Assembly (NCBI GenBank): GCA_965220775.1
Contig: OZ244845.1
Coordinates: forward strand, 2,066,568 to 2,130,567
DNA length: 64,000 nt
Reading direction: 5' to 3'
DNA from: Chloroflexota bacterium
GTDB taxonomy: Bacteria > Chloroflexota > UBA6077 > FW602-bin22 > JBCLEL01
The notes under the pieces were generated by a model. That model saw nothing but the letters and a program-made list of their open reading frames with translations. It was not told the DNA's origin and did no database searches. How positions within the stretch are numbered: the stretch's first letter is position 1; each line of letters starts with the position of its first letter. Shown here piece after piece: positions 1 through 57,676 of this stretch. The position numbers and the translations under genes are program-made.

Positions 1-1
1 T

Positions 2-649
2 CAGGCCAACCTGATGGACGCCAACACGCCGTTCATTACCTCGCTCAACGATGACCCCCGGTTCTGGGAGACCGCCGAGCGGTTGCTCGGCAAAGAGGTA
101 TTGGGTGTAGGGGGAGACAGCAACTACTACGTCGGCGACACGGCCTGGCATCCCGATAACAACGGACTGCGACAAGATTCCGTCAAATTCACAATCTACC
201 TCGAACCGCTCAATGCGACCAACGGTGCGCTCCGCGTGATTCCCGGCTCGCATCGTGAGCCATTGCATAGCGCAATACGCGGAGGCACGCGCCAGGAACA
301 CTCCAGTGCCGTCGGACCGAATTTCGGAATCCGGCCCAATCAGGTGCCGGCCTATGCCTTTACCTCAGAACCGGGTGATGTCCTCGCTTTCCATACCGGA
401 ACTTGGCACGGGGCGTTCGGCGGAAACACAAAGCGGCGCATGGGCACAATCCAATACTACGAGAATCCGCAAACGGTGGAGTCATTCGAAGAGATACGCC
501 GAGTTCTGCGCCACACTCACAAGACAGAGATTGACAGGATTGGTCGCCCGTGGTTTCCGGAATATTGGCGATCGTTAGACAACCCTCGCCACAAGGCGTG
601 GGTCCGGCGTGTGGATGAGATCATGGCGCTCGATGAAGTCCACGACTAG
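2..649 (+). CDS. PhyH-like Fe(II)/2-oxoglutarate dioxygenase, 5'-partial (copy 1 of tandem array)
   Basis: Frame is open to the window edge. The protein aligns residue-for-residue with the C-terminal ~210 aa of the two downstream paralogs (NLMDxNTPFITSLNDDPRFWE, WHPD, RVIPGSHREPLH, AFHTGxWHxAFGG). The HxD (HPD) plus distal His are consistent with a 2-His-1-carboxylate site. Confidence 0.75.
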   Translation, partial: QANLMDANTPFITSLNDDPRFWETAERLLGKEVLGVGGDSNYYVGDTAWHPDNNGLRQDSVKFTIYLEPLNATNGALRVIPGSHREPLHSAIRGGTRQEHSSAVGPNFGIRPNQVPAYAFTSEPGDVLAFHTGTWHGAFGGNTKRRMGTIQYYENPQTVESFEEIRRVLRHTHKTEIDRIGRPWFPEYWRSLDNPRHKAWVRRVDEIMALDEVHD

Positions 650-907
650 CCCGATCGGAGTTGCGCCGACGAGATGTAGCTGATGGGTTCTTTGGTTACT
701 CGAAGTACCGGCTTGATCACGTCACCCCGGCGCTCCGATTCGCCGACTGATTCGAGTGCTGGGAGGGAATCCGATTCCTGGGCTGCAAGCACCCTATAGC
801 GTTGTCAGGTCGCGTTGAAGAGCTGCGTCAAGGCGCCGCGTCCCGGCGCCAAGCGGGGATAACATACTAAGTCGTGACATTCTCTTAGGATGATCAGGGA
901 GGGCCGA

Positions 908-1726
908 ATGAGACTCACCGAACAGCAGATCAACCACTTTCGCACCTTTGGATTCTTAGTCTTCCGACAGCTCTTCTCACCGGAGGAATGGAAGACCTAC
1001 TGTCACGAGTTCGACTTAGGGTTGGATGCATTGATCCCGGACCACAAGCACGGCGGCAAGGCCCGGTTTCAGGCTAACCTGATGGACGGCAACACGCCGT
1101 TCATTACCTCACTGAACGATGACCCCCGGTTTTGGGAGACGGCCGAGCAGTTGCTCGGCAAAGAGGTATTGGGTATTGGCGGAGACAGTAACTACTACGT
1201 CGGTGATACGGCTTGGCATCCCGACAATAGATCGCTGGTACAAGATTCCGTCAAATTCACGATCTACCTCGAACCGCTCAATGCGCGCAACGGAGCGCTC
1301 CGGGTCATTCCCGGCTCGCATCGAGAGCCGCTGCATAGCGCAATAGCTGGAGGGGTCCTACAGGAATACTCCAGTGCCCGGGGCACCGTCGGATCGAATT
1401 TCGGAGTCCGGCCTGATCAACTGCCGTCCTATGCCTTTGTGTCAGAACCACGTGATGTTCTGGCTTTCCATACCGGAATTTGGCACGCTGCGTTCGGTGG
1501 CAACAACCGGCGTCGCATGGGTACGATTCAGTACTACGAGAATCCGCAAACGGCGGACTCATTCGAGGAGATACGCCGGGTGTTGCGCCGGATTCACGAA
1601 AAAGAAATTGAAATGCATGGTCGCCCGTGGTTTCCAGAATTCTGGCGATCGTTAGACAACCCTCGTCACCAGGCGTGGGTCCGGCGCATGGATGAGATCG
1701 CGGCGCTCGATGAAGTCCACGACTAG
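908..1726 (+). CDS. PhyH-like Fe(II)/2-oxoglutarate dioxygenase (copy 2)
   Basis: ORF 890..1726. I prefer the ATG at 908 (MRLTEQQINHF) because AGGGAGGG lies 5 nt upstream and the paralog at 36722..37534 starts with MNLTQQQLNHF. Motifs are the same as in copy 1. Confidence 0.8.
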   Translation: MRLTEQQINHFRTFGFLVFRQLFSPEEWKTYCHEFDLGLDALIPDHKHGGKARFQANLMDGNTPFITSLNDDPRFWETAEQLLGKEVLGIGGDSNYYVGDTAWHPDNRSLVQDSVKFTIYLEPLNARNGALRVIPGSHREPLHSAIAGGVLQEYSSARGTVGSNFGVRPDQLPSYAFVSEPRDVLAFHTGIWHAAFGGNNRRRMGTIQYYENPQTADSFEEIRRVLRRIHEKEIEMHGRPWFPEFWRSLDNPRHQAWVRRMDEIAALDEVHD

Positions 1727-1984
1727 CCCGATCGGGGTTGCGCCGACGAGATGTAGCTGATGGGTTCTTCGGTTACTCGAAGTACCGGCTTGATCACGTC
1801 ACCCCGGCGCTCCGATTCGCCGACTGATCAGAGTCTTGGGCGCAATACCGATTCCCGGGCTACAAGCACCCTTTCGCGTTGTCAGGTCGCGTTGAAGAGT
1901 TGCGCCAAGGCGCCGTTTCCCGGCGCCAAGTGGGGATAACATACTAAGTTGTGACATTCTCTTAGGATGATCAGGGAGGACCGA

Positions 1985-2812
1985 ATGAGACTCACCGAAC
2001 AGCAGATCAACCACTTTCGCACCTTTGGATTCTTGGTCTTCCGGCAGCTCTTTACGCCGGAAGAGTGGAAGACCTATTGTCACGAGTTCGACTTAGGGTT
2101 GGATGCATTGATCCCGGGGCACAAGCACGATGGCAGGACCCGGTTTCAGGCTAACCTGATGGACGCCACCACTCCGTTCATTACGTCGTTGAACGATGAC
2201 CCCCGGTTCTGGGAGACGGCCGAGCAGTTGCTTGGCAAAGAGGTATTGGGTGTTGGCGGAGACAGCAACTACTACGTCGGCGACACGGACTGGCATCCCG
2301 ATAATCAGTGGCTGCGTCAGGATTCCGTCAAATTCACGATCTACCTCGAACCGCTCGATGCGCGCAACGGTGCGCTCCGCGTGATTCCCGGTTCCCATCG
2401 AGAGCCATTACATAGCGAAATAGCGGGAGGCTCAATGCGGGATTACGTCGATGCCCCGCACGACGTCGGGTCAAATTTCGGAGTCCGGCCCGATCAAGTT
2501 CCGTGCTATGTATTTGATTCAGAACCGGGTGATGTCCTCGCTTTCCATACCGGAATCTGGCACGGCGCGTTCGGCGGCAGCACAAAGCGTCGCATGGGCA
2601 CAATCCAATACTACGAGGATCCGCAAACAGAGGTCCCGCTCCAGGCGGTCCGGAGCGTGTTGCATGGGATTGACCGGCGAGAGATTGAAGTGCATGGTCG
2701 CCCGTGGTTTCCGGACTATTGGCGGACGATAGACAATCCTCGGCACCAGGCGTGGGTCCGGCGCATGGATGAGATCGCGGCGCTTGATGAACCGGCCGGC
2801 GGGCTCACTTAG
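1985..2812 (+). CDS. PhyH-like Fe(II)/2-oxoglutarate dioxygenase (copy 3, divergent C-terminus)
   Basis: ORF 1967..2812. The ATG at 1985 is homologous to the 908 start. The C-terminal tail (DEPAGGLT) differs from copies 1 and 2 (DEVHD), which marks the end of the repeat. Confidence 0.8.
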   Translation: MRLTEQQINHFRTFGFLVFRQLFTPEEWKTYCHEFDLGLDALIPGHKHDGRTRFQANLMDATTPFITSLNDDPRFWETAEQLLGKEVLGVGGDSNYYVGDTDWHPDNQWLRQDSVKFTIYLEPLDARNGALRVIPGSHREPLHSEIAGGSMRDYVDAPHDVGSNFGVRPDQVPCYVFDSEPGDVLAFHTGIWHGAFGGSTKRRMGTIQYYEDPQTEVPLQAVRSVLHGIDRREIEVHGRPWFPDYWRTIDNPRHQAWVRRMDEIAALDEPAGGLT

Positions 2813-18972: not shown

Positions 18973-19656
18973 ATGAGCCGTTTTGAAAAGCTTGAGATCA
19001 TTGACCTGACGCAAGTCTTCGAGCCCGGATTGCCGGTGATGCCTGCACTCCCTCCTCCGGCAATCTGGCCGGTTCTGAGACAGGACGAGGGCGATTACGT
19101 GAACGCCAACGTGATCCAGTATTGCGAGCACTCCGGCACTCATCTCGACTCCCCGGCCCACTTCGTCAAAGGAGGAACAACGTTGGAGTCCCTCCCGCTT
19201 GACAAGCTCATAGGGCCGGCGGTTGTGCTTGATCTCACTGGCAAGCGAGGTGATGTTCCGATAGACGTATCGGACCTGGAAGCCGCCCAGCGCAGCGCCT
19301 CTTCGATTGAACCCGGCGACGTTGTCCTGCTCCGGTCCGACCACTCGTTACTCTGGGACGTAAAGCCGCGCAACCGTGCCTTTATTGAGGACGGTTGGCC
19401 GTATCTGACTTCCGAGGCTGCGCGGTACCTCCTGCAAGCGGGGATTCGAGCCCTAGGCGTAGAGACGCCGGATCCCGACCGGCACGGGGCTACGGAGTTT
19501 CCCACGCACTACACTCTTCTGCCAGCCGGCGTCCCAATTATCGAAAATCTATGCAACCTAAATCGGATAGGTCTTTTTCGTTGCGAATTCATGGCGTTGC
19601 CATTGAAAGTCCGTGGCGGAACAGGCGGCCCGTGTCGCGCTCTGGCGTTCGTGTGA
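18973..19656 (+). CDS. Cyclase-family protein (kynurenine formamidase-like)
   Basis: IIDLTQ....P.......HSGTHLDSPAHF is the putative cyclase (HxGTHxDxPxH) signature. Confidence 0.75.
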   Translation: MSRFEKLEIIDLTQVFEPGLPVMPALPPPAIWPVLRQDEGDYVNANVIQYCEHSGTHLDSPAHFVKGGTTLESLPLDKLIGPAVVLDLTGKRGDVPIDVSDLEAAQRSASSIEPGDVVLLRSDHSLLWDVKPRNRAFIEDGWPYLTSEAARYLLQAGIRALGVETPDPDRHGATEFPTHYTLLPAGVPIIENLCNLNRIGLFRCEFMALPLKVRGGTGGPCRALAFV

Positions 19657-20290
19657 TTGTCGATAACGTCAGTCGTCATTGATACGAAAGCATGTCCCGG
19701 ACTCCGATCCGGGATACATGGATCCCGCCGCGCCCGCGGGTCCTGTCATTGGTACCCCAATAGATTTCGGTACGGGCGCGCGACGCCAACAACTACCTGC
19801 CCAACATGGACAGCCGATTGTCAACACAGAGAAATGTAGGGCTGGGGCTTGTCCCCAGCCGAGGGCGGGGTGGTCGTTCGGCCGTGGTTGTACCGTCCGG
19901 CGTCTCGCCATTCTCATCCTCTCAAGTAGTCTTCGCAAGGCCTTGGAGATTCCAGAGAATACGGGAATCCAGGAAGAGGCGCGGGCGCCCCAAGTTTCGT
20001 ACCTGGAGTGTGCCGGCGGCAGCCGGCCTGAGCGATCGGTACGAGAATGAATGGATCCCGTCACGCCGGCGGGTCCCTGCATTCCGGCGATCGAAGGCAG
20101 GCCCCGTACCCCGATACGGGGCCGGAATCCAGGGGAAGGGCAAGACCGCCATACAATATGCAAGAACTCGGCGATCCACTATTTTCATCACCCAATGCGG
20201 TCTTCGCAGGGCCATGTCGTTCCTCGACCAGCCCCTATCGCCTAAGCGCATTTACCGAATGTCAGAAGCGCCGTGGAAGATGAACGATCG
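19657..20290. repeat. Cluster A of mosaic hairpin repeats (non-coding, between convergent genes)
   Basis: Contains module M1 (atgtagggctggggcttgtccccagcc, 19834-19860), M3 (gtgtgccggcggcagccggc, 20008-20027) and M2 (gccccgtaccccgatacggggccggaatcc, 20101-20130). Also two copies of ggatcccg..N..gcgggtcc (about 19720 and about 20053) and further hairpins. The only ORFs are low-complexity read-throughs. Confidence 0.7.
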
Positions 20291-21721
20291 CTAGGTTGCC
20301 CAAGCCGGCAGGCTTACGGTGAAAACAGTGCCAGTCTTTTCGTCGCTTTTCGCTTCGATAGAGCCATTGTGTAATTGCACAAGCTCTTTCACGATTGAGA
20401 GGCCGAGTCCGCTGCCTTCGCTACCTGCACGCATGCGTGATCGGTCTATCTGATAGAAGCGCTCGAAAATGCGGCTCAGGTGCTCGGGCGGAATATAGGA
20501 ACCGCTGTTGGTTACTGAAAGTTGTGCTTGACTCCCACTGCTACTCGCCTTGACTTGGATCTCTCCACCGGTCGGCGTATGCTTCACAGCGTTGTCGATC
20601 ATATTCGTCAGGACCTGCTCTAGCCTGTGGGGATCCGCCGGGATCACCAGTCCCTGCTCCACGTCCGCCGAGAGTTTCAAGTCTCGTTCCGCCGACTGTC
20701 GCTCAAAGGCCCGCGTACACCCCTCAGCGATCTCGCCCACGCTCACCGGCTCGACGTTTAGGCTTACCTGGCCGGACTCGATTTTCGATAGGTAGAGCAG
20801 ATCATCTACCAAACGGTGCATCCGGCTAGACTCTTCCTGCACGACCTGACCTGCCGTCTTGTAATCCTCAGGTTTATTTAAAGTGCCGTCGATCATCGCC
20901 TGCGCGAATCCTTGGATCGAGGTGAGCGGCGTGCGCAGCTCATGTGATACGTTCGCCAGAAAATCGCGCATAGATTGCTGTGATTGTGATACTTCCCTGG
21001 CCATTCTGTTGAACGCCTGCGCTAGGGAGTCGATCTCGACGATGTCTTGTCTTGGTACTTGGTGGTCGTATCTGCTGCGGGCTATCTCCTCGCTTGCCGA
21101 CGTCAGGGTCCCAATCGGACGCGTGATCGAGCGCGATAAAAAGACGGCCGCGCCAATCGAAACGATCAGAGACACCAGCGCCGCGATGGATAAGCCGGGC
21201 GCCAGCTCGAGCCAAGCCGTAGAGAGGCTCTCATGCGGTACCGTCAAAGCGACCTGTAATCCTGGATCTGAATTGTGGGATCCCTTCAGTGTCGAACGCA
21301 CAGAGCGCGGTACCGAGGTTATGACGAAAAGGTTGCCATGTTCGCCTTCTTTGTAGTCCGCCCAATATGACGTTACGCCGGCCCGGAACGGGCGCTCGGT
21401 CATGCCCATCTGATGCCCTTCAAGTTTGTTACCGGTGTCCACCAGGACGCGGCGCTCACTGTCCATCAACAAGATGCGCACGTCGAGCTCGTTGGCTTGA
21501 TACTCTAGAAAGCGGATTATCTCGTCGGACGGTGCGTTCGCCCACTCCAGGATCGCTACTTGGTAGGACAGGGGTAGGGCCATGTCGGCAAGTTGGTTGG
21601 CGCGGAGCTGACTGTGATACCCACGTAAGATATACACGAAAGTCAGGCCGGCCAAGAACAGCGCCAAGAAATTGACGACGACAAACGCCAGAATGAGCCG
21701 AGTCCGCAGAATCCTAAGCAT
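20291..21721 (-). CDS. Sensor histidine kinase (2 TM, HAMP, HisKA, HATPase_c)
   Basis: H-box SHELRTPLTSIQGF, N-box NAVKHTP and G-box GSGLGLSIVKELV. Two hydrophobic segments flank a periplasmic-type domain. Confidence 0.85.
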   Translation of the reverse strand: MLRILRTRLILAFVVVNFLALFLAGLTFVYILRGYHSQLRANQLADMALPLSYQVAILEWANAPSDEIIRFLEYQANELDVRILLMDSERRVLVDTGNKLEGHQMGMTERPFRAGVTSYWADYKEGEHGNLFVITSVPRSVRSTLKGSHNSDPGLQVALTVPHESLSTAWLELAPGLSIAALVSLIVSIGAAVFLSRSITRPIGTLTSASEEIARSRYDHQVPRQDIVEIDSLAQAFNRMAREVSQSQQSMRDFLANVSHELRTPLTSIQGFAQAMIDGTLNKPEDYKTAGQVVQEESSRMHRLVDDLLYLSKIESGQVSLNVEPVSVGEIAEGCTRAFERQSAERDLKLSADVEQGLVIPADPHRLEQVLTNMIDNAVKHTPTGGEIQVKASSSGSQAQLSVTNSGSYIPPEHLSRIFERFYQIDRSRMRAGSEGSGLGLSIVKELVQLHNGSIEAKSDEKTGTVFTVSLPAWAT

Positions 21722-31289: not shown

Positions 31290-31322
31290 AAAAAATAAGC
31301 TCTCGTCCATAGGGACGAGAGC
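31290..31322 (-). terminator. T-box attenuator terminator
   Basis: On the minus strand, gctctcgtcc-ctat-ggacgagagc is followed by TTATTTTTT. Its 5' arm (ctctcg) can alternatively pair with cgagag of the T-box to form the antiterminator. Confidence 0.75.
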
Positions 31323-31545
31323 CAATACTCTCGCGGTACCACCCTAACTAGCAGGTAGCTCGCTCATCAAGGGCGCGCAACCCTACGGTTGTAGGCCCCC
31401 GCCGGCGTTAACGATCGGCGACTCCGTCCGCGTCTACTCGGCTCTACGCGTTTCGGGCGGATGCTCAGGAATGATTTTCAGCCGGATAGCCGGCCCGCTT
31501 TCACCATCCGCGGGCTCTCTGATCGGTCTTCTCGCAGCTTACTCG
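31290..31545 (-). promoter_or_regulatory. T-box riboswitch leader, Ile specifier (AUC)
   Basis: The minus strand contains the canonical T-box AGUUAGGGUGGUACCGCGAGAG (31331-31350), an AGAGAG bulge, a GGUGAAAG distal loop, and the specifier context GAAA-AUC-A (codon at 31473-31475). It lies directly upstream of ileS. Confidence 0.8.
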
Positions 31546-31583
31546 TTTCCCTCGTAGCAGCTTCGATATTGACTTGTCGCCTG

Positions 31584-31613
31584 ATTCTAGGGCCTCGTGC
31601 CGCATTAAGTCAA
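31584..31613 (-). promoter_or_regulatory. Putative sigma-70 promoter of the ileS leader
   Basis: Minus strand TTGACT (31608-31613), 18-nt spacer, TAGAAT (31584-31589). Confidence 0.5.
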
Positions 31614-31824
31614 TCGCCCCGCCGCCGATTCAGGGGGTTTCAATTCTTTAATATTTAGGACTTCTAGAGTATTTTCCTAGGCCGACAAGCAGTTGGTCGA
31701 AACAGTCAACCAACCAAGGCCATTTCGATAGTCCGCAAACCGCATGTCGTCATTCCTGCGAAGGCAGGAATCCAGAGGAGAGGGGGGAGGCACGACCACC
31801 GCCAACCTTTGGTGACAACGAAAG

Positions 31825-32070
31825 TTAGAGAATCAAAAACCCCTGCGCCGATTGCATAATTGACCAACGACTAACGTATTTTGCAGCCATCCGCTCTAAC
31901 TTGACCCAATCCCTCCACCCAACAATGTCCAACTCATATGCTGAAAATATCTTGCCTGTTGTACCATATGCGTGCGATATTTTCATAAATACTGCAACTG
32001 AGTTGCAAAGGCCTATCTTGAGAATCTTGGCGATTAGTGATGGTCGATGAGAATCATCCAGTTGATTCAC
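31825..32070 (-). CDS. Small hypothetical protein (81 aa) in an AT-rich patch
   Basis: The only ORF in a visibly low-GC stretch. It is divergent from the XRE/ImmA gene. No motif; coding status is uncertain. Confidence 0.3.
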   Translation of the reverse strand: MNQLDDSHRPSLIAKILKIGLCNSVAVFMKISHAYGTTGKIFSAYELDIVGWRDWVKLERMAAKYVSRWSIMQSAQGFLIL

Positions 32071-36362: not shown

Positions 36363-36720
36363 GTGCCCAGTCTAAGTGTTACCCATCTCCCCGGTCGTAC
36401 AATGAGGGTGAACCCGGTAGCGCTGGGGCTCTTCCCCAGACCTCGCCAATCCGGCCAGCCATTTGATCGATTCGCCCTGCAGAATCGCGCCTCCGGCGAA
36501 AGCGTGCCCCGTACTTCTATGCGTGGGCCGGAACCCAGAGCGCGGTGTCAGGCGTGTAATCCAACCAAGCCAGAGCCGGTATCCAGAGGAGGCAAACTCA
36601 TACCTCCTCTCCCTCGATGGGAGAGGATTGAGGTGAGGATGTATACACCCCGGCACCTGGCACAGACTCCACCAACCCGCCTCGCCAACCCCTGCGAGGA
36701 GACAACCTCCATCGGCGAGA
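36363..36720. repeat. Cluster D of mosaic hairpin repeats
   Basis: M1 variant gtagcgctggggctcttccccaga (36417-36440), M2 variant gtgccccgtacttctatgcgtgggccggaaccc (36506-36536), and a further hairpin cctcctctccctcgatgggagaggattgagg. Confidence 0.55.
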
Positions 36721-46974: not shown

Positions 46975-47085
46975 GAAATGTAGCGCTGGGGCTTGTCCCC
47001 AGCCCACGCCAACGACTACCACCCCGCACTGCCGGCCAACTTCATCCACTTTACCCACCCTAGTGCGCCGGCGGCAGCCGACAAC
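46975..47085. repeat. Cluster B of mosaic hairpin repeats
   Basis: M1 atgtagcgctggggcttgtccccagcc (46978-47004) and M3 gtgcgccggcggcagccgac (47063-47081), between convergent gene ends. Confidence 0.55.
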
Positions 47086-52639: not shown

Positions 52640-53060
52640 TGAGTGGAGGGAGAAAATGTAGCGCTGGGGCTTGTCCCCAGCTAAGGACGCTCGGCCAGCC
52701 GGCCGGAAGTGGCGTCCCACCCGGAAGCCCTTTAACACACCTTATTATGCCGGCGATCAACGGTGCGCCCCGTACCCTGATACGGGGCCGGAATCTATGG
52801 GAGGCACGGGTGGTATCTAGTGAGATTCGAACACTTCCGCCAGCCGGCGCCCCTGGTTTTCATAACTTGGTGTGCCGGCGGCAGTCGGCACGGACAACTG
52901 GTACGGAGTCGGGTTATTCGTTACTAAGCCGCCGCAGAATTCAGCAACTTGGAAAAAGCCCTGCTCTTACTCATATGGTCAAACACAAGCGCTCGTCTCA
53001 CAAAAGACGGCGTCACCCGACTATGCGGTCCGGCGGGTTCGCCACATTCGGCGCCTCGGA
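52640..53060. repeat. Cluster C of mosaic hairpin repeats
   Basis: M1 atgtagcgctggggcttgtccccagc (52656-52681), M2 gccccgtaccctgatacggggccggaatc (52767-52795) and M3 gtgtgccggcggcagtcggca (52869-52889). It lies immediately downstream of the MalF-type permease. Confidence 0.6.
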
Positions 53061-57232: not shown

Positions 57233-57556
57233 CGTTCAGCTCCTTGTTGTTAATCGGGTTGTATATCTATGGGCGTGAATCTATCTTTGCTACGAACTCT
57301 TCCTAGGTCGATGGGAACCCGGCAATCGGTCTTCCAAATTGGTGGGGATTACCTGTCTCGATGAGCTAGCTTGGAGTTGACAACTTGCGATGCCAGAATC
57401 CCTCCATTGTCCGTAAACCGCACGTCCTCGTTCCGGCGAGATCATGTCCTTTACCCCGATGCGGGACCGGATTCCAGACGAGGCGCGTCAGGCTCCAATG
57501 ACACTCTTAACGTTCCACCAACCAGCGCACCATGATCTCTGCGCCTTGCCGTGCCG

Positions 57557-57586
57557 TTGGCAACCGGCATGTGCGATTGTTATAAT
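57557..57586 (+). promoter_or_regulatory. Putative promoter of tRNA-Trp
   Basis: TTGGCA (57557-57562), 18-nt spacer ending in TGT, TATAAT (57581-57586). The tRNA begins 15 nt downstream. Confidence 0.5.
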
Positions 57587-57600
57587 ATTGTCCGCCGCCA

Positions 57601-57676
57601 AGGAGTGTAGCTCAGTTGGAAGAGCAGCTGTCTCCAAAACAGCCGGTCGGGGGTTCGAGTCCCTCCACTCCTGCCA
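57601..57676 (+). tRNA. trnW: tRNA-Trp (anticodon CCA)
   Basis: Folded by hand: acceptor AGGAGTG/CACTCCT, D-stem GCTC/GAGC, anticodon stem GCTGT/ACAGC with loop CTCCAAA, T-arm GGGGG-TTCGAGT-CCCTC, discriminator G, and an encoded CCA. Confidence 0.95.

What the first reader, a model, noticed from the sequence alone, without database searches (positions are those of the whole stretch)
19657..20290. Family of mosaic hairpin repeats forming ORF-free clusters in at least five intergenic regions
**Recurring modules.** Three short modules recur in varying order.
- M1 is (A)ATGTAG[C/G]GCTGGGGCTTGTCCCCAGC, a 7-8 bp stem. Copies lie at 19834, 46978 and 52656, with a variant at 36417.
- M2 is ATTCCGGCGATC..GCCCCGTACCC[C/T]GATACGGGGCCGGAATCC, a nested hairpin whose outer arms are ATTCCGGC/GCCGGAAT and inner arms CCCCGTA/TACGGGG. 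Copies lie at 20101 and 52767, with variants at 36506 and 57454.
- M3 is GTG[C/T]GCCGGCGGCAG[C/T]CG. Copies lie at 20008, 47063 and 52869.

**Related elements.**
- The tail GGAATCCAGRGGA recurs at 19968, 20123 and 31768, where it follows the hairpin cattcctgcgaaggcaggaatcc.
- Two copies of GGATCCCG-N-GCGGGTCC are also present.

**Placement.** Clusters reach 350-630 nt (19657-20290, 36363-36720, 52640-53060) and mostly occupy 3' ends of genes. The architecture is BIME/REP-like.

**Interpretation.** This could be a mobile miniature element family, a set of transcript-stabilising or terminating structures, or recombination substrates. One cluster sits at the operon break described above.
Basis: seen in the sequence. 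Interest (0 to 1): 0.6.

Follow-up and report, generated by a model that had tools for sequence, protein, structure and literature searches.

The report
Polar REP and Ssn hairpin-repeat arrays
The gene-free cluster is one of about 300 arrays of short DNA hairpin repeats in an uncultured Chloroflexota genome; they combine two known repeat types, each with its own single-strand DNA enzyme gene in the genome, and unusually all point one way, following the chromosome's strand composition rather than the neighbouring genes.

Summary
M1, M2 and M3 belong to a genome-wide system: about 1,500 module copies in about 300 intergenic clusters (2.5% of a 3.88-Mb chromosome).

- **M1** is a GTAG-tagged REP. 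Its cognate RAYT gene (NCBIfam REP_Tyr_transpos, above cut-off) lies at genome 45.6 kb inside M1 arrays. RAYT orthologues in other phyla carry the same flanking hairpin.
- **M2** is the CGTC-tagged NTS/SRM hairpin, the published target of Ssn GIY-YIG single-strand nucleases. A 95-aa Ssn-type gene has an NTS 100 nt upstream.
- **M3 and modules B, D and F** are genus-specific and have no known enzyme.

The "varying order" is a fixed head-to-tail syntax, D-F-A-B-C-D-E. The clusters are non-coding. A congener has the 19657-20290 site empty, and a closer relative differs by module-sized indels at microhomologies.

Undescribed in the papers I searched:
- strict co-orientation (225 of 230 arrays);
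- polarity that follows local GC skew (252 of 300 clusters, p = 2e-34; 23 of 23 regions in a second genome);
- half-sites on the 5' side of NTS hairpins;
- arrays nested at the NTS of a MITE.

Verdict: a new variant of known kinds. The spreading mechanism is inferred.

The parts
19657..20290 (+). Repeat array between two convergent genes: a putative cyclase (18973-19656, +) and a histidine kinase (20291-21721, -). All modules are in + orientation, in the order tag-D, D', A, degenerate NTS, C, D', X.
   Evidence: Absent from the orthologous site in G002, which holds 48 nt. Present in G001 with a +181-nt and a -53-nt indel.
19672..19716 (+). Module D: the tag GTCGTCATT, then GATACGAAAGCATG, then the hairpin TCCCGGA-CTCCGA-TCCGGGA. 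This is the commonest repeat in the genome.
   Evidence: 183 copies of its 16-mer. 268 non-overlapping BLAST hits. DNA fold -7.1 kcal/mol, z -2.6.
19720..19743 (+). D-variant hairpin GGATCCCGC-CGCGCCC-GCGGGTCC, first copy.
19832..19867 (+). M1, module A: a GTAG-tagged REP. AAATGTAG is followed by an 8-bp stem GGCTGGGG/CCCCAGCC with loop CTTGT.
   Evidence: D9, D10. Fold -10.3 kcal/mol, z -3.8. The same hairpin flanks the RAYT gene and its orthologues.
19949..19977 (+). Degenerate NTS-like hairpin with the GGAATCCAGGAAGA tail.
   Evidence: read directly from the sequence.
20007..20036 (+). M3, module C: GTGTGCCGGCGGCAGCCGGCCTGAGCG, with the GCCGGC/GCCGGC hairpin.
   Evidence: (D8, D13), and the fold. 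Part of the 53 nt that G001 lacks, bounded by GCCGGCGG direct repeats.
20053..20076 (+). D-variant hairpin GGATCCCG-TCACGCCG-GCGGGTCC, second copy.
20080..20136 (+). M2 long form, module X. It is an NTS/SRM-type hairpin (CATTCCGGCG...GCCGGAATCCAGGGGA) with a D-like unit (ATCGAAGGCAGG + CCCCGTA/TACGGGG) nested in its loop.
   Evidence: (D7). Compared with the NTS consensus of PMC11893778.
31631..31845 (+). 215-bp MITE with inverted ends CAGGGGGTTT / AAACCCCTG and an 8-bp target duplication CGCCGATT. It carries one canonical NTS hairpin (GTCGTCATTCCTGCGAAGGCAGGAATCCAGAGG, about 31746-31785). It lies 67 nt upstream of a T-box leader.
   Evidence: Absent in G001 with a clean empty site. Of 14 complete copies examined, 11 carry 356-1,626 nt of modules nested at the NTS position, 2 are unexpanded and 1 carries an 88-nt insert.
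36363..36720 (+). Degenerate array with an M1 variant (36417-36449), an M2-long variant (36490-36541) and a further hairpin CTCTCCCTCGATGGGAGAG (about 36608-36626).
   Evidence: Conserved in G001. The site holds about 88 nt in G002.
46976..47085 (+). Array with M1 (46976-47011) and M3 (47062-47080) between convergent genes.
   Evidence: G001 has 409 nt more here, bounded by two direct M1 copies.
52640..53060 (+). Array with M1 (52654-52689), M2-long (52747-52802) and M3 (52857-52905).
   Evidence: G001 lacks 41 nt here, bounded by CAG[CT]CGGC.
57426..57584 (+). Old, degenerate M2-long (57426-57481) and M3-like (57549-57584) elements directly upstream of a tRNA gene (57601-57673).
   Evidence: (D7, D8). 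The M3-like part with TGTTATAAT is conserved in G002.

Best explanation
The cluster is one array of a genome-wide population of non-coding hairpin repeats that act as single-stranded DNA. It belongs to an uncultured Chloroflexota bacterium.

**Two known enzyme and repeat partnerships are interleaved in the same arrays.**
- M1 is the GTAG-tagged REP of a single-copy REP-associated tyrosine transposase (RAYT, a Y1 HUH enzyme).
- M2 is the CGTC-tagged NTS/SRM hairpin recognised by a small GIY-YIG single-strand nuclease of the Ssn family.
- M3 and modules B, D and F are genus-specific passenger or partner modules. They travel with M1 and M2 in a fixed head-to-tail syntax, D-F-A-B-C-D-E.

**Shown here.**
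- The identity of M1 and M2, and the presence of both enzyme genes with their motifs next to them.
- The non-coding, gain-and-loss nature of the arrays.
- Strict co-orientation within arrays.
- Orientation that follows local GC skew and not gene direction.
- Growth on the 5' side of NTS hairpins.

**Inferred.**
- New sites are seeded by dispersal of units. This could be RAYT-mediated for REP-bearing units, or carriage on a MITE.
- Arrays then grow and shrink in place by slippage or unequal recombination between direct repeats. They may also grow by nick-and-copy repair at the Ssn cut site.
- The chromosome-wide polarity reflects exposure of single-stranded DNA at the replication fork. It arises either from biased insertion or from selection against cleavable hairpins on the exposed strand.
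For: **RAYT and M1.**
- A Y1_Tnp gene lies at genome 45570-46052. It scores 109 bits against NF047646 REP_Tyr_transpos, cut-off 80.
- It sits between 0.6-kb and 1.3-kb arrays of M1 hairpins, with one inverted M1-like hairpin just upstream.
- Orthologues in Chloroflexota, Myxococcales and Deltaproteobacteria MAGs were recovered. In the six Chloroflexota and two Deltaproteobacteria loci inspected, seven are flanked by GTAG[GC]GCGGGGGCTTGTCCCCCGC and five show the inverted pair.
- All 6 relatives with the RAYT have the REP, against 10 of 25 without it.

**Ssn and M2.**
- The published NTS consensus (PMC11893778) matches exactly 33 times.
- The paper's SRM pattern matches 185 times, against about 38 in simulated genomes.
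- A 95-aa single-domain GIY-YIG gene lies at genome 2617676-2617963, with an NTS 100 nt upstream.
- In G002 the orthologue is flanked by 5 NTS copies.
- This NTS variant occurs 152, 105 and 53 times in the three genomes with close Ssn orthologues. It occurs 0 times in 26 of 28 other relatives.

**Syntax and orientation.**
- Fixed gaps separate modules (FA, AB, BC, CD). Of 230 multi-module clusters, 225 are uniform in orientation.
- Of 110 clusters holding both REP and NTS, 107 are co-oriented.

**Polarity.**
- 252 of 300 clusters are concordant with local skew, Fisher p = 2e-34.
- There are 33 orientation runs against about 150 in shuffles.
- The bias holds separately for REP-only, NTS-only and mixed clusters.
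- 23 of 23 sampled regions in G001 are concordant, and an inverted segment carries flipped modules.
- Orientation does not correlate with gene strand.

**Turnover.**
- Empty sites exist in G002.
- Indels of 41-409 nt against G001 are bounded by 6-36 nt direct repeats.
- Units within an array are more alike than units between arrays (0.878 against 0.827, p = 3e-9). Even so, 46 of 63 units have their closest relative in another array.

**Growth on the 5' side.**
- 68 half-sites lie 5' of a full NTS and 3 lie 3' of one, with a modal spacing of 21 nt.
- Arrays are nested at the NTS in 11 of 14 complete MITE copies examined.
Against: - No enzyme activity, transposition event or transcript was observed. 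The links between enzymes and repeats rest on adjacency, co-occurrence and published work on homologues.
- The indels seen between close genomes all have microhomology at their edges. They are explained by slippage or recombination alone, so they do not need RAYT or Ssn.
- RAYT-mobilised REPs are described as inverted doublets (REPINs, BIMEs). Here the REPs are head-to-tail.
- Some relatives have the REP but no detectable RAYT. Many of these are incomplete MAGs.
- Homology of the 95-aa protein to N. meningitidis SsnA itself was not measured.
- The replication geometry is unresolved. The skew flips about a dozen times, and dnaA is not at the global skew minimum. "Replication-linked" is therefore an inference from skew and a weak gene-strand bias.
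Confidence: 0.72

Rival explanations
1. The arrays act mainly at the RNA level. They would be transcribed hairpins that terminate transcription, protect 3' ends or regulate neighbouring genes, and would be kept by selection for that role.
For: - REPs elsewhere are reported to stabilise mRNA and to sit downstream of genes (PMC3733652).
- Several window clusters lie between convergent genes.
- An M3-like copy supplies an extended -10 box upstream of a tRNA gene and is conserved in G002.
Against: - In tandem-gene gaps the arrays are co-directional with the genes 104 times and opposed 66 times. 24% lie between divergent genes.
- Orientation follows GC skew, not gene strand.
- The hairpins have no T-run. 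Rfam gives no match.
- Orthologous sites are empty or differ in relatives without any gene change.
- Ssn does not act on RNA (PMC11893778).
Confidence: 0.1
2. The clusters are ordinary MITEs, or decayed IS fragments, moved by a DDE transposase. The hairpins would be incidental.
For: - The element at 31631-31845 is a real MITE with inverted ends and an 8-bp target duplication. It is absent in G001 and has about 17 copies.
- It carries an NTS and often whole arrays, so it does move modules to new sites.
Against: - The arrays have no terminal inverted repeats and no target duplications.
- They are built of co-oriented units with a fixed syntax.
- Most of the roughly 300 clusters are not inside this MITE.
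- DDE-type insertion does not predict orientation that follows GC skew.
Confidence: 0.05
3. The repeats are host-selected polar chromosome signals. They would resemble KOPS, Chi or protein-binding BIMEs, and read out replication direction for segregation, recombination, gyrase or nucleoid proteins. The enzymes would be incidental.
For: - Chromosome-wide polarity tied to skew is the hallmark of such signals.
- Every repeat family tested, including an unrelated one (family G), shows the bias.
- E. coli BIMEs bind IHF and gyrase. This is from my own knowledge, and PMC2817692 mentions it in its abstract.
Against: - The arrays are highly variable between close genomes and are absent from orthologous sites. 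That argues against a conserved positional role.
- Copy number per site ranges from 1 to more than 25 modules.
- Known polar signals are short oligomers inside genes as well, not intergenic hairpin arrays. This is from my own knowledge.
Confidence: 0.1
4. The clusters are parts of real protein-coding genes.
For: ORFs of 144-164 aa overlap the clusters on both strands.
Against: - They have no Pfam hit.
- They are rejected by a dicodon gene caller.
- The whole cluster is missing in G002. Indels of 41, 53, 181 and 409 nt, none a multiple of three, separate G000 from G001.
Confidence: 0.01

Closest known systems
REP / BIME / REPIN elements with their RAYT (TnpAREP), together called a REPtron (E. 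coli, Pseudomonas, Stenotrophomonas; PMC2817692, PMC8266576, PMC6006769)
   Same: - M1 has a 5' GTAG tag, a perfect 7-8 bp stem and a short loop.
[quoted passage not shown]
- The single-copy RAYT is flanked by its own REPs.
- Several repeat subfamilies occur per genome, and the clusters are mosaic.
   Different: - BIMEs and REPINs are built from REPs in alternating, inverted orientation. Here the REPs are strictly head-to-tail.
- They are interleaved with four or five other module types in a fixed order.
- Orientation is uniform over hundreds of kb and follows GC skew.
NTS / dRS3 / SRM hairpins with the Ssn (SsnA) GIY-YIG single-strand nuclease, and Neisseria intergenic mosaic elements (Chenal et al. 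2025, PMC11893778)
   Same: - M2 fits the 28-nt NTS consensus, exactly in 33 copies.
- The genome encodes a 95-aa single-domain GIY-YIG protein with the motif next to its gene.
- There are more than 150 copies.
- The motif has an orientation set by the CGTCATT tag.
   Different: - The host is Chloroflexota. That name does not appear in the paper's main text.
- The arrays are co-oriented and polar with respect to skew.
- There are runs of half-sites on the 5' side.
- A long form of the NTS has a second hairpin nested in its loop.
- The NTS is interleaved with a RAYT-type REP.
GTAG- and CGTC-tagged REP superfamilies (Di Nocera et al. 2013, PMC3733652)
   Same: - Both tag classes are present here with the expected structure.
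- Head-tail dimers and tandem reiteration are described there.
- GTAG REPs are reported in Chloroflexi.
   Different: - That survey treats the two superfamilies as separate families. In the passages I read it reports no fixed joint syntax.
- In those passages I found no chromosome-scale strand polarity reported.
IS200/IS605 elements and their non-autonomous derivatives (IS608, ISDra2; background in PMC6006769)
   Same: - Co-oriented subterminal hairpins.
- No inverted ends and no target duplication.
- A single-strand DNA mechanism.
- Orientation bias relative to replication.
   Different: - No TnpA(IS200) or TnpB is associated with the arrays.
- No defined left and right ends or target tetranucleotide could be identified.
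- If skew has its usual meaning, the tag strand lies on the leading-strand template, not the lagging-strand template.

Membership tests
GTAG-tagged REP with RAYT (REPtron) | A 5' GT[AG]G tetranucleotide 0-2 nt from a 7-20 bp stem with a 2-5 nt loop (PMC6006769). | tested here: met
   GTAG + 1 nt + GCTGGGG/CCCCAGC or GCGGGGG/CCCCCGC, loop CTTGT. 95% Watson-Crick pairs over 246 copies.
GTAG-tagged REP with RAYT (REPtron) | High copy number, mostly extragenic. | tested here: met
   About 277-332 copies. 29 of 1,581 modules fall inside predicted genes.
GTAG-tagged REP with RAYT (REPtron) | A RAYT gene (Y1 HUH transposase, REP_Tyr_transpos) flanked by the same REP. | tested here: met
   PF01797 at 53.9 bits. 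NF047646 at 109 bits against a cut-off of 80. M1 arrays lie on both sides. The same hairpin flanks 7 of 8 RAYT-orthologue loci inspected.
GTAG-tagged REP with RAYT (REPtron) | REPs arranged as inverted doublets (REPIN/BIME). | tested here: not met
   225 of 230 multi-module clusters are uniformly oriented. An inverted pair is seen only directly around the RAYT gene and its orthologues.
GTAG-tagged REP with RAYT (REPtron) | The RAYT binds and cleaves the single-stranded REP. | not testable with these tools
   Needs biochemistry.
Ssn nuclease with NTS/SRM repeats | The repeat fits NTS CGTCATTCCCGCGMAVGCGGGAATCYRG or the degenerate SRM pattern (PMC11893778). | tested here: met
   33 exact NTS matches. 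185 SRM matches against about 38 in simulated genomes. 152 matches to CGTCATTCCNGC-N3-6-GCNGGAATC against 0 for the reversed control.
Ssn nuclease with NTS/SRM repeats | A single-domain GIY-YIG protein of about 94 aa (cd10448). | tested here: inconclusive
   95 aa, PF01541 at 57 bits, no other domain. A huge family of 95-aa relatives exists. The CDD cd10448 assignment and E < 1e-10 to N. meningitidis SsnA were not measured, because neither was available here.
Ssn nuclease with NTS/SRM repeats | The ssn gene is flanked by its own motif. | tested here: met
   One NTS lies 100 nt upstream in G000. Five NTS copies lie within 1 kb on both sides in G002.
Ssn nuclease with NTS/SRM repeats | Strand-specific cleavage of single-stranded DNA a few nt 5' of the motif. 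| not testable with these tools
   Only an indirect footprint is available: half-sites lie 68 to 3 on the 5' side.
MITE (TIR/TSD element) | Terminal inverted repeats, a target-site duplication, and presence/absence polymorphism. | tested here: met
   Met for 31631-31845 only: TIR CAGGGGGTTT/AAACCCCTG, TSD CGCCGATT, empty site in G001. Not met for the arrays themselves.

The most novel reading that the evidence does not exclude
Two unrelated single-strand DNA enzyme systems share one head-to-tail array grammar and one chromosome-wide polarity. The systems are RAYT with GTAG REPs and Ssn with CGTC/NTS hairpins.

The strand the enzymes can cut always lies on the C-rich strand, which is presumably the leading-strand template. 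On this reading the arrays are not cut-and-paste transposons. They grow by a transposase-independent process at the replication fork. Single-stranded pieces released by nicking 5' of a hairpin would anneal through short tags (CGTCATT, ATTGGT) and be built into the nascent lagging strand.

That would explain four observations:
- the polarity;
- the junctions at tags;
- the half-site runs on the 5' side;
- the lack of target duplications.
Probability: 0.25. Interest if true: 0.75.

Novelty: new variant of a known kind. Interest (0 to 1): 0.55.

Why it matters
How REPs spread has been debated for about 40 years. The biological role of Ssn nucleases outside Neisseria is stated to be unknown (PMC11893778).

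This lineage offers a natural test case:
- both enzyme and repeat pairs are in one genome;
- hundreds of recent copies are about 93% identical to their consensus;
- complete congeneric genomes show gains and losses;
- a strand polarity ties the repeats to whichever process sets GC skew.

If the polarity reflects fork-exposed single-stranded DNA, it gives a directly testable model for how hairpin repeats multiply, or are purged, without classical transposition.

For annotation, the result is practical. The large ORFs in these clusters are spurious, and the arrays are hot spots of indels and probably of assembly error.

Tried and rejected
- **Protein-coding reading.** Rejected.
- **Known RNA family.** Rfam gives nothing at gathering score or at E <= 1.
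- **Transcription-set orientation.** Weak and inconsistent.
- **Assembly artefact as the cause of the orientation blocks.** Rejected, because the independent complete genome G001 is collinear and shows the same blocks.
- **Skew created by the repeats themselves.** Rejected. The repeats were masked, and their own top-strand skew is only -0.024.
- **Strand-specific G.T against A.C mismatches in stems, as a test of which strand folds.** No consistent asymmetry.
- **Defined element ends or target site around stand-alone composites.** Only a recurrent left junction, CATTGG|TACGAAAG, was found. There are no inverted ends or duplications.
- **Second Y1 gene (genome 3066575-3067147).** Below the RAYT cut-off. 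It is flanked by a different GTAG hairpin, not by these modules.
- **PDB relative of the Ssn-like protein.** None.
- **Supplementary tables of the Ssn paper.** Not held.
- **A fuzzy-regex scan.** It timed out and was replaced by BLAST.
Full report
**1. Observation**

The window is positions 2,066,568-2,130,567 of a single-contig 3.88-Mb genome with 57.8% G+C. The closest public records are uncultured Chloroflexota MAGs.

None of this is chance:
- With up to three mismatches the genome holds about 277 M1, 95 M2 and 307 M3 copies.
- The most frequent 16-mers occur 80-183 times.
- 3.2% of the genome is covered by 16-mers present at least 8 times.

From k-mer consensus extension I defined these modules:
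- A is M1.
- C is M3, full form TTTTCATACCTTGGTGTGCCGGCGCCAGCCGGCATGAGCGATTGCTA.
- E is the short form of M2, CGTCATTCCGGCGAAGGCCGGAATCCAGAGGGG.
- X is the long form of M2.
- D, TACGAAAGCATG plus the hairpin TCCCGGA/TCCGGGA, is the commonest of all. It opens the cluster at 19683.

BLAST finds 1,581 non-overlapping module hits in 360 clusters. About 300 clusters remain once those made only of an unrelated family, G, are set aside. They total 95.9 kb, with a median length of 239 nt and a maximum of 1.5 kb.

**2. The clusters are non-coding and come and go**

- Only 29 of 1,581 modules overlap genes predicted with a dicodon caller I trained on this genome.
- The ORFs that span the clusters have no Pfam match.
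- The 19657-20290 cluster lies between a putative cyclase gene and a convergent histidine kinase gene.

Two congeneric genomes were compared.

G002 is about 75-85% identical in DNA.
- The two genes flanking the 19657-20290 cluster are 48 nt apart there, with no repeat.
- The 36.3-36.7 kb cluster is also missing.

G001 is about 92-96% identical in DNA. It is a complete 3.71-Mb chromosome, OZ253568.1 by its length.
- The 19657-20290 cluster is present. It carries 181 nt more, an E+C unit joined at ATTGGT. It also lacks 53 nt, lost between two GCCGGCGG repeats.
- At 46.98 kb G001 has 409 nt more, lying between two direct M1 copies.
- At 52.8 kb it lacks 41 nt between CAG[CT]CGGC repeats.
- The element at 31631-31845 is absent from G001, leaving a clean empty site.

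**3. What the modules are**

*M1 is a GTAG-tagged REP.*
- A Pfam Y1_Tnp match lies at genome 45570-46052.
- The 161-aa product scores 109 bits against NCBIfam NF047646, "REP-associated tyrosine transposase". The cut-off is 80 bits.
- The gene is embedded in about 0.6 kb (upstream) and 1.3 kb (downstream) of M1-type hairpins. One M1-like hairpin lies in the opposite sense just upstream. This is the REPtron layout described in PMC6006769.
- Orthologous RAYTs were recovered from other Chloroflexota and from Myxococcales and Deltaproteobacteria MAGs at 36-79% identity.
- I inspected six Chloroflexota and two Deltaproteobacteria loci. Seven are flanked by GTAG[GC]GCGGGGGCTTGTCCCCCGC. In five the hairpin lies on the + strand upstream of the gene and on the - strand just after the stop codon.
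- Among 31 genomes (this one and its relatives), all 6 with the RAYT have the REP.

*M2 is the NTS/SRM hairpin.*
- Chenal et al. (PMC11893778) define the NTS as CGTCATTCCCGCGMAVGCGGGAATCYRG. They show that SsnA, a 94-aa GIY-YIG protein, binds it only as single-stranded DNA and cuts a few nucleotides 5' of it.
- This genome has 33 exact NTS matches.
- It has 185 matches to their degenerate SRM pattern. First-order Markov simulations give about 38.
- It has 152 matches to CGTCATTCCNGC-N3-6-GCNGGAATC. The reversed control gives none.
- A 95-aa single-domain GIY-YIG gene lies at genome 2617676-2617963, with an NTS 100 nt upstream.
- In G002 its orthologue is flanked by five NTS copies.
- The three genomes with close orthologues have 152, 105 and 53 copies of this NTS variant. 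26 of 28 other relatives have none.
- The protein belongs to a very large family of 95-aa GIY-YIG proteins. Members include proteins 72-73% identical that NCBI labels as from Rhodocyclaceae and SAR202 MAGs.
- I could not measure its similarity to N. meningitidis SsnA itself.

*M2-long* is an NTS whose loop contains a second unit, CGAAAGCATG plus the hairpin CCCCGTA/TACGGGG. That unit is of module D type.

*M3, B, D and F* have no known partner.
- The composite A-B-C-D unit (178 nt) occurs at 92-99% identity in G001 and at 83-91% in G002.
- Outside the genus only the REP part matches.

*The element at 31631-31845* is a separate thing. It is a 215-bp MITE with inverted ends and 8-bp target duplications, and it carries one NTS.

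**4. Grammar and polarity**

Module order is not free.
- The common transitions are F-A, A-B, B-C and C-D, with gaps of -3 to +1 nt.
- D-E, E-C and D-F have gaps of about 46-57 nt.
- Together they give the canonical string D-F-A-B-C-D-E(-C-D-E...).
- The window clusters are degenerate excerpts of that string.

Orientation within arrays is almost uniform.
- 225 of 230 multi-module clusters have every module in one orientation.
- 107 of the 110 clusters that hold both REP and NTS are co-oriented.
- This is unlike BIMEs and REPINs, whose REPs alternate in orientation (PMC2817692, PMC6006769).

Along the chromosome the orientation forms 33 runs. Shuffles give about 150.

Orientation follows local GC skew.
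- It is unrelated to gene strand. It correlates with GC skew per 100 kb (Spearman -0.76, p = 4e-7).
- With the repeats masked and a window of +/-25 kb, 252 of 300 clusters are concordant (Fisher p = 2e-34).
- The tag-bearing strand (GTAG or CGTCATT) lies on the locally C-rich strand.
- The bias holds separately for REP-only clusters (60 to 16), NTS-only clusters (82 to 12) and mixed clusters (95 to 15).
- In G001, all 23 sampled 20-kb regions are concordant.
- G001 is collinear with this genome, so the block pattern is not an assembly artefact.
- The one segment that is inverted between the two genomes carries modules in the flipped orientation.

Position relative to genes is unremarkable.
- 57% of clusters lie between tandem genes, 24% between divergent genes and 19% between convergent genes. 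This resembles intergenic gaps in general.
- In tandem gaps the arrays run with the genes 104 times and against them 66 times.

**5. How arrays grow**

- CGTCATT tags without a full hairpin lie within 150 nt on the 5' side of a full NTS 68 times. They lie on the 3' side 3 times. The modal spacing is 21 nt. The 5' side is where Ssn cuts (PMC11893778).
- I examined 14 complete MITE copies. Two have the plain single-NTS form, and one has an 88-nt insert. Eleven carry 356-1,626 nt of modules nested exactly at the NTS position, with the left junction TCGTCATT(C/G)|GTACGAAA.
- There are 102 full A-B-C-D units, with a median identity of 93% to their consensus.
- Units in the same array are more alike than units in different arrays (0.878 against 0.827, p = 3e-9). 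For 17 of 63 units the nearest relative is an array-mate. The other 46 have their nearest relative elsewhere.
- Local duplication and dispersal between loci therefore both occur.
- Stand-alone composites show no inverted ends or target duplications.

**6. Mechanism**

*Shown:*
- two ssDNA-hairpin repeat classes with their enzyme genes;
- the arrays are non-coding and are gained and lost;
- head-to-tail grammar;
- polarity linked to skew;
- growth on the 5' side of NTS hairpins.

*Inferred:*
- REP-bearing units are dispersed by the RAYT and by MITE carriage.
- Arrays expand and contract by slippage or unequal recombination between direct repeats. All four indels seen against G001 have 6-36 nt of repeat at their edges.
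- Nicking by Ssn may drive duplication 5' of the NTS.
- The polarity reflects single-stranded DNA at the replication fork.

*Which strand is exposed.*
- Gene-strand bias is weak but has the usual sense. 56% of genes lie on + where skew is positive, against 48% where it is negative (p = 8e-6).
- By that reading the G-rich strand is the leading strand. The enzyme-cleavable strand would then lie on the leading-strand template, away from the exposed lagging-strand template.
- This fits selection against self-cleavage. It equally fits copy-in of released top-strand DNA into the nascent lagging strand.
- It is the opposite of the IS608 rule, in which excision and insertion use the lagging-strand template (background in PMC6006769).

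*Caveat.* The skew flips about a dozen times. dnaA (genome 1450426-1450899) sits at a local switch, not at the global minimum at 3.59 Mb. Fork directions are therefore not established.

**7. Rivals**

- An RNA-level role is not favoured, given the orientation data, the lack of T-runs and the Rfam result.
- A DDE-type MITE explains only the element at 31631-31845.
- A host polar-signal role remains possible but fits poorly with the rapid turnover.
- Protein coding is excluded.

**8. Novelty**

Already published:
- REPs with RAYTs;
- CGTC/NTS repeats with Ssn;
- GTAG REPs in Chloroflexi (PMC3733652).

Not found in the papers I searched or read:
- the joint grammar of the two systems;
- strict head-to-tail orientation;
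- chromosome-scale polarity that follows GC skew;
- half-site runs on the 5' side of the NTS;
- nesting of arrays at the NTS of a MITE.

Earlier notes of this scan describe the Ssn link and the polarity for this genome and for other Chloroflexota. I used them as leads and re-tested the claims here.

My verdict is a new variant of known kinds. Interest is moderate to fairly high, and the spreading mechanism remains inferred.

Noticed in passing
window 57549-57673: An M3-like element (GTGCCGTTGGCAACCGGCATGTGCGATTGTTATAAT) supplies a perfect extended -10 box (TGTTATAAT) about 20 nt upstream of a tRNA gene. The arrangement is conserved in the distant congener G002. Either module C derives from a promoter, or a copy was co-opted as one.
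   Followed up: partly
window 31308-31845: The 215-bp MITE lies 67 nt upstream of a T-box leader (Rfam RF00230, 103 bits, minus strand). That leader precedes a 1051-aa ORF, probably an aminoacyl-tRNA synthetase. The MITE is absent at this site in G001, so the promoter region differs between close relatives.
   Followed up: partly
genome 3066575-3067147 (outside the window): A second RAYT-like Y1 gene scores 63 bits, below the NCBIfam cut-off. It sits in a type I restriction-modification region. A different GTAG hairpin (GTAGGGGCGACGCACGCGTCGCC) lies both inside and after the ORF. A third GTAG hairpin, GTAG[AC]GGCGGGTTTSAAACCCGCC, occurs about 10 times in the genome.
   Followed up: partly
genome-wide; e.g. 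genome 2900120-2900215 and 2901597-2901750: A further repeat family, G, has a CCCCTTCTCCTGGCCAGGAGAAGGGG palindrome inside a longer unit of about 400 nt. That unit contains GGGTTGCAAGGGCGAAGCCCTTGACGGGG and CCTTGACCGCCGACTGAGGACCCGAATGGCGACTCGGCC. There are 40-60 copies. The family is itself a target of the MITE, and its orientation is also biased relative to skew (43 to 17).
   Followed up: no
genome-wide: GC skew changes sign about a dozen times in blocks of 100-400 kb, and the pattern is shared with the collinear complete genome G001. dnaA lies at a local switch (1.45 Mb), while the cumulative minimum is at 3.59 Mb. This points to many old intra-replichore inversions or to an unusual replication geometry.
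   Followed up: partly
genome-wide: A CRISPR-type repeat, GTTCCCCCGCACGCGCGGGGATAGACC, is present about 37 times elsewhere in the genome.
   Followed up: no
window 1-2812: Three tandem paralogous genes are spaced 1,077 nt apart at 79-87% identity (repeat families D1 and D2).
   Followed up: no
G002 contig C20:493447-500448: In the congener G002 the RAYT and Ssn genes lie only about 6 kb apart. In this genome they are 2.6 Mb apart in contig coordinates, about 1.3 Mb on the circular chromosome.
   Followed up: no
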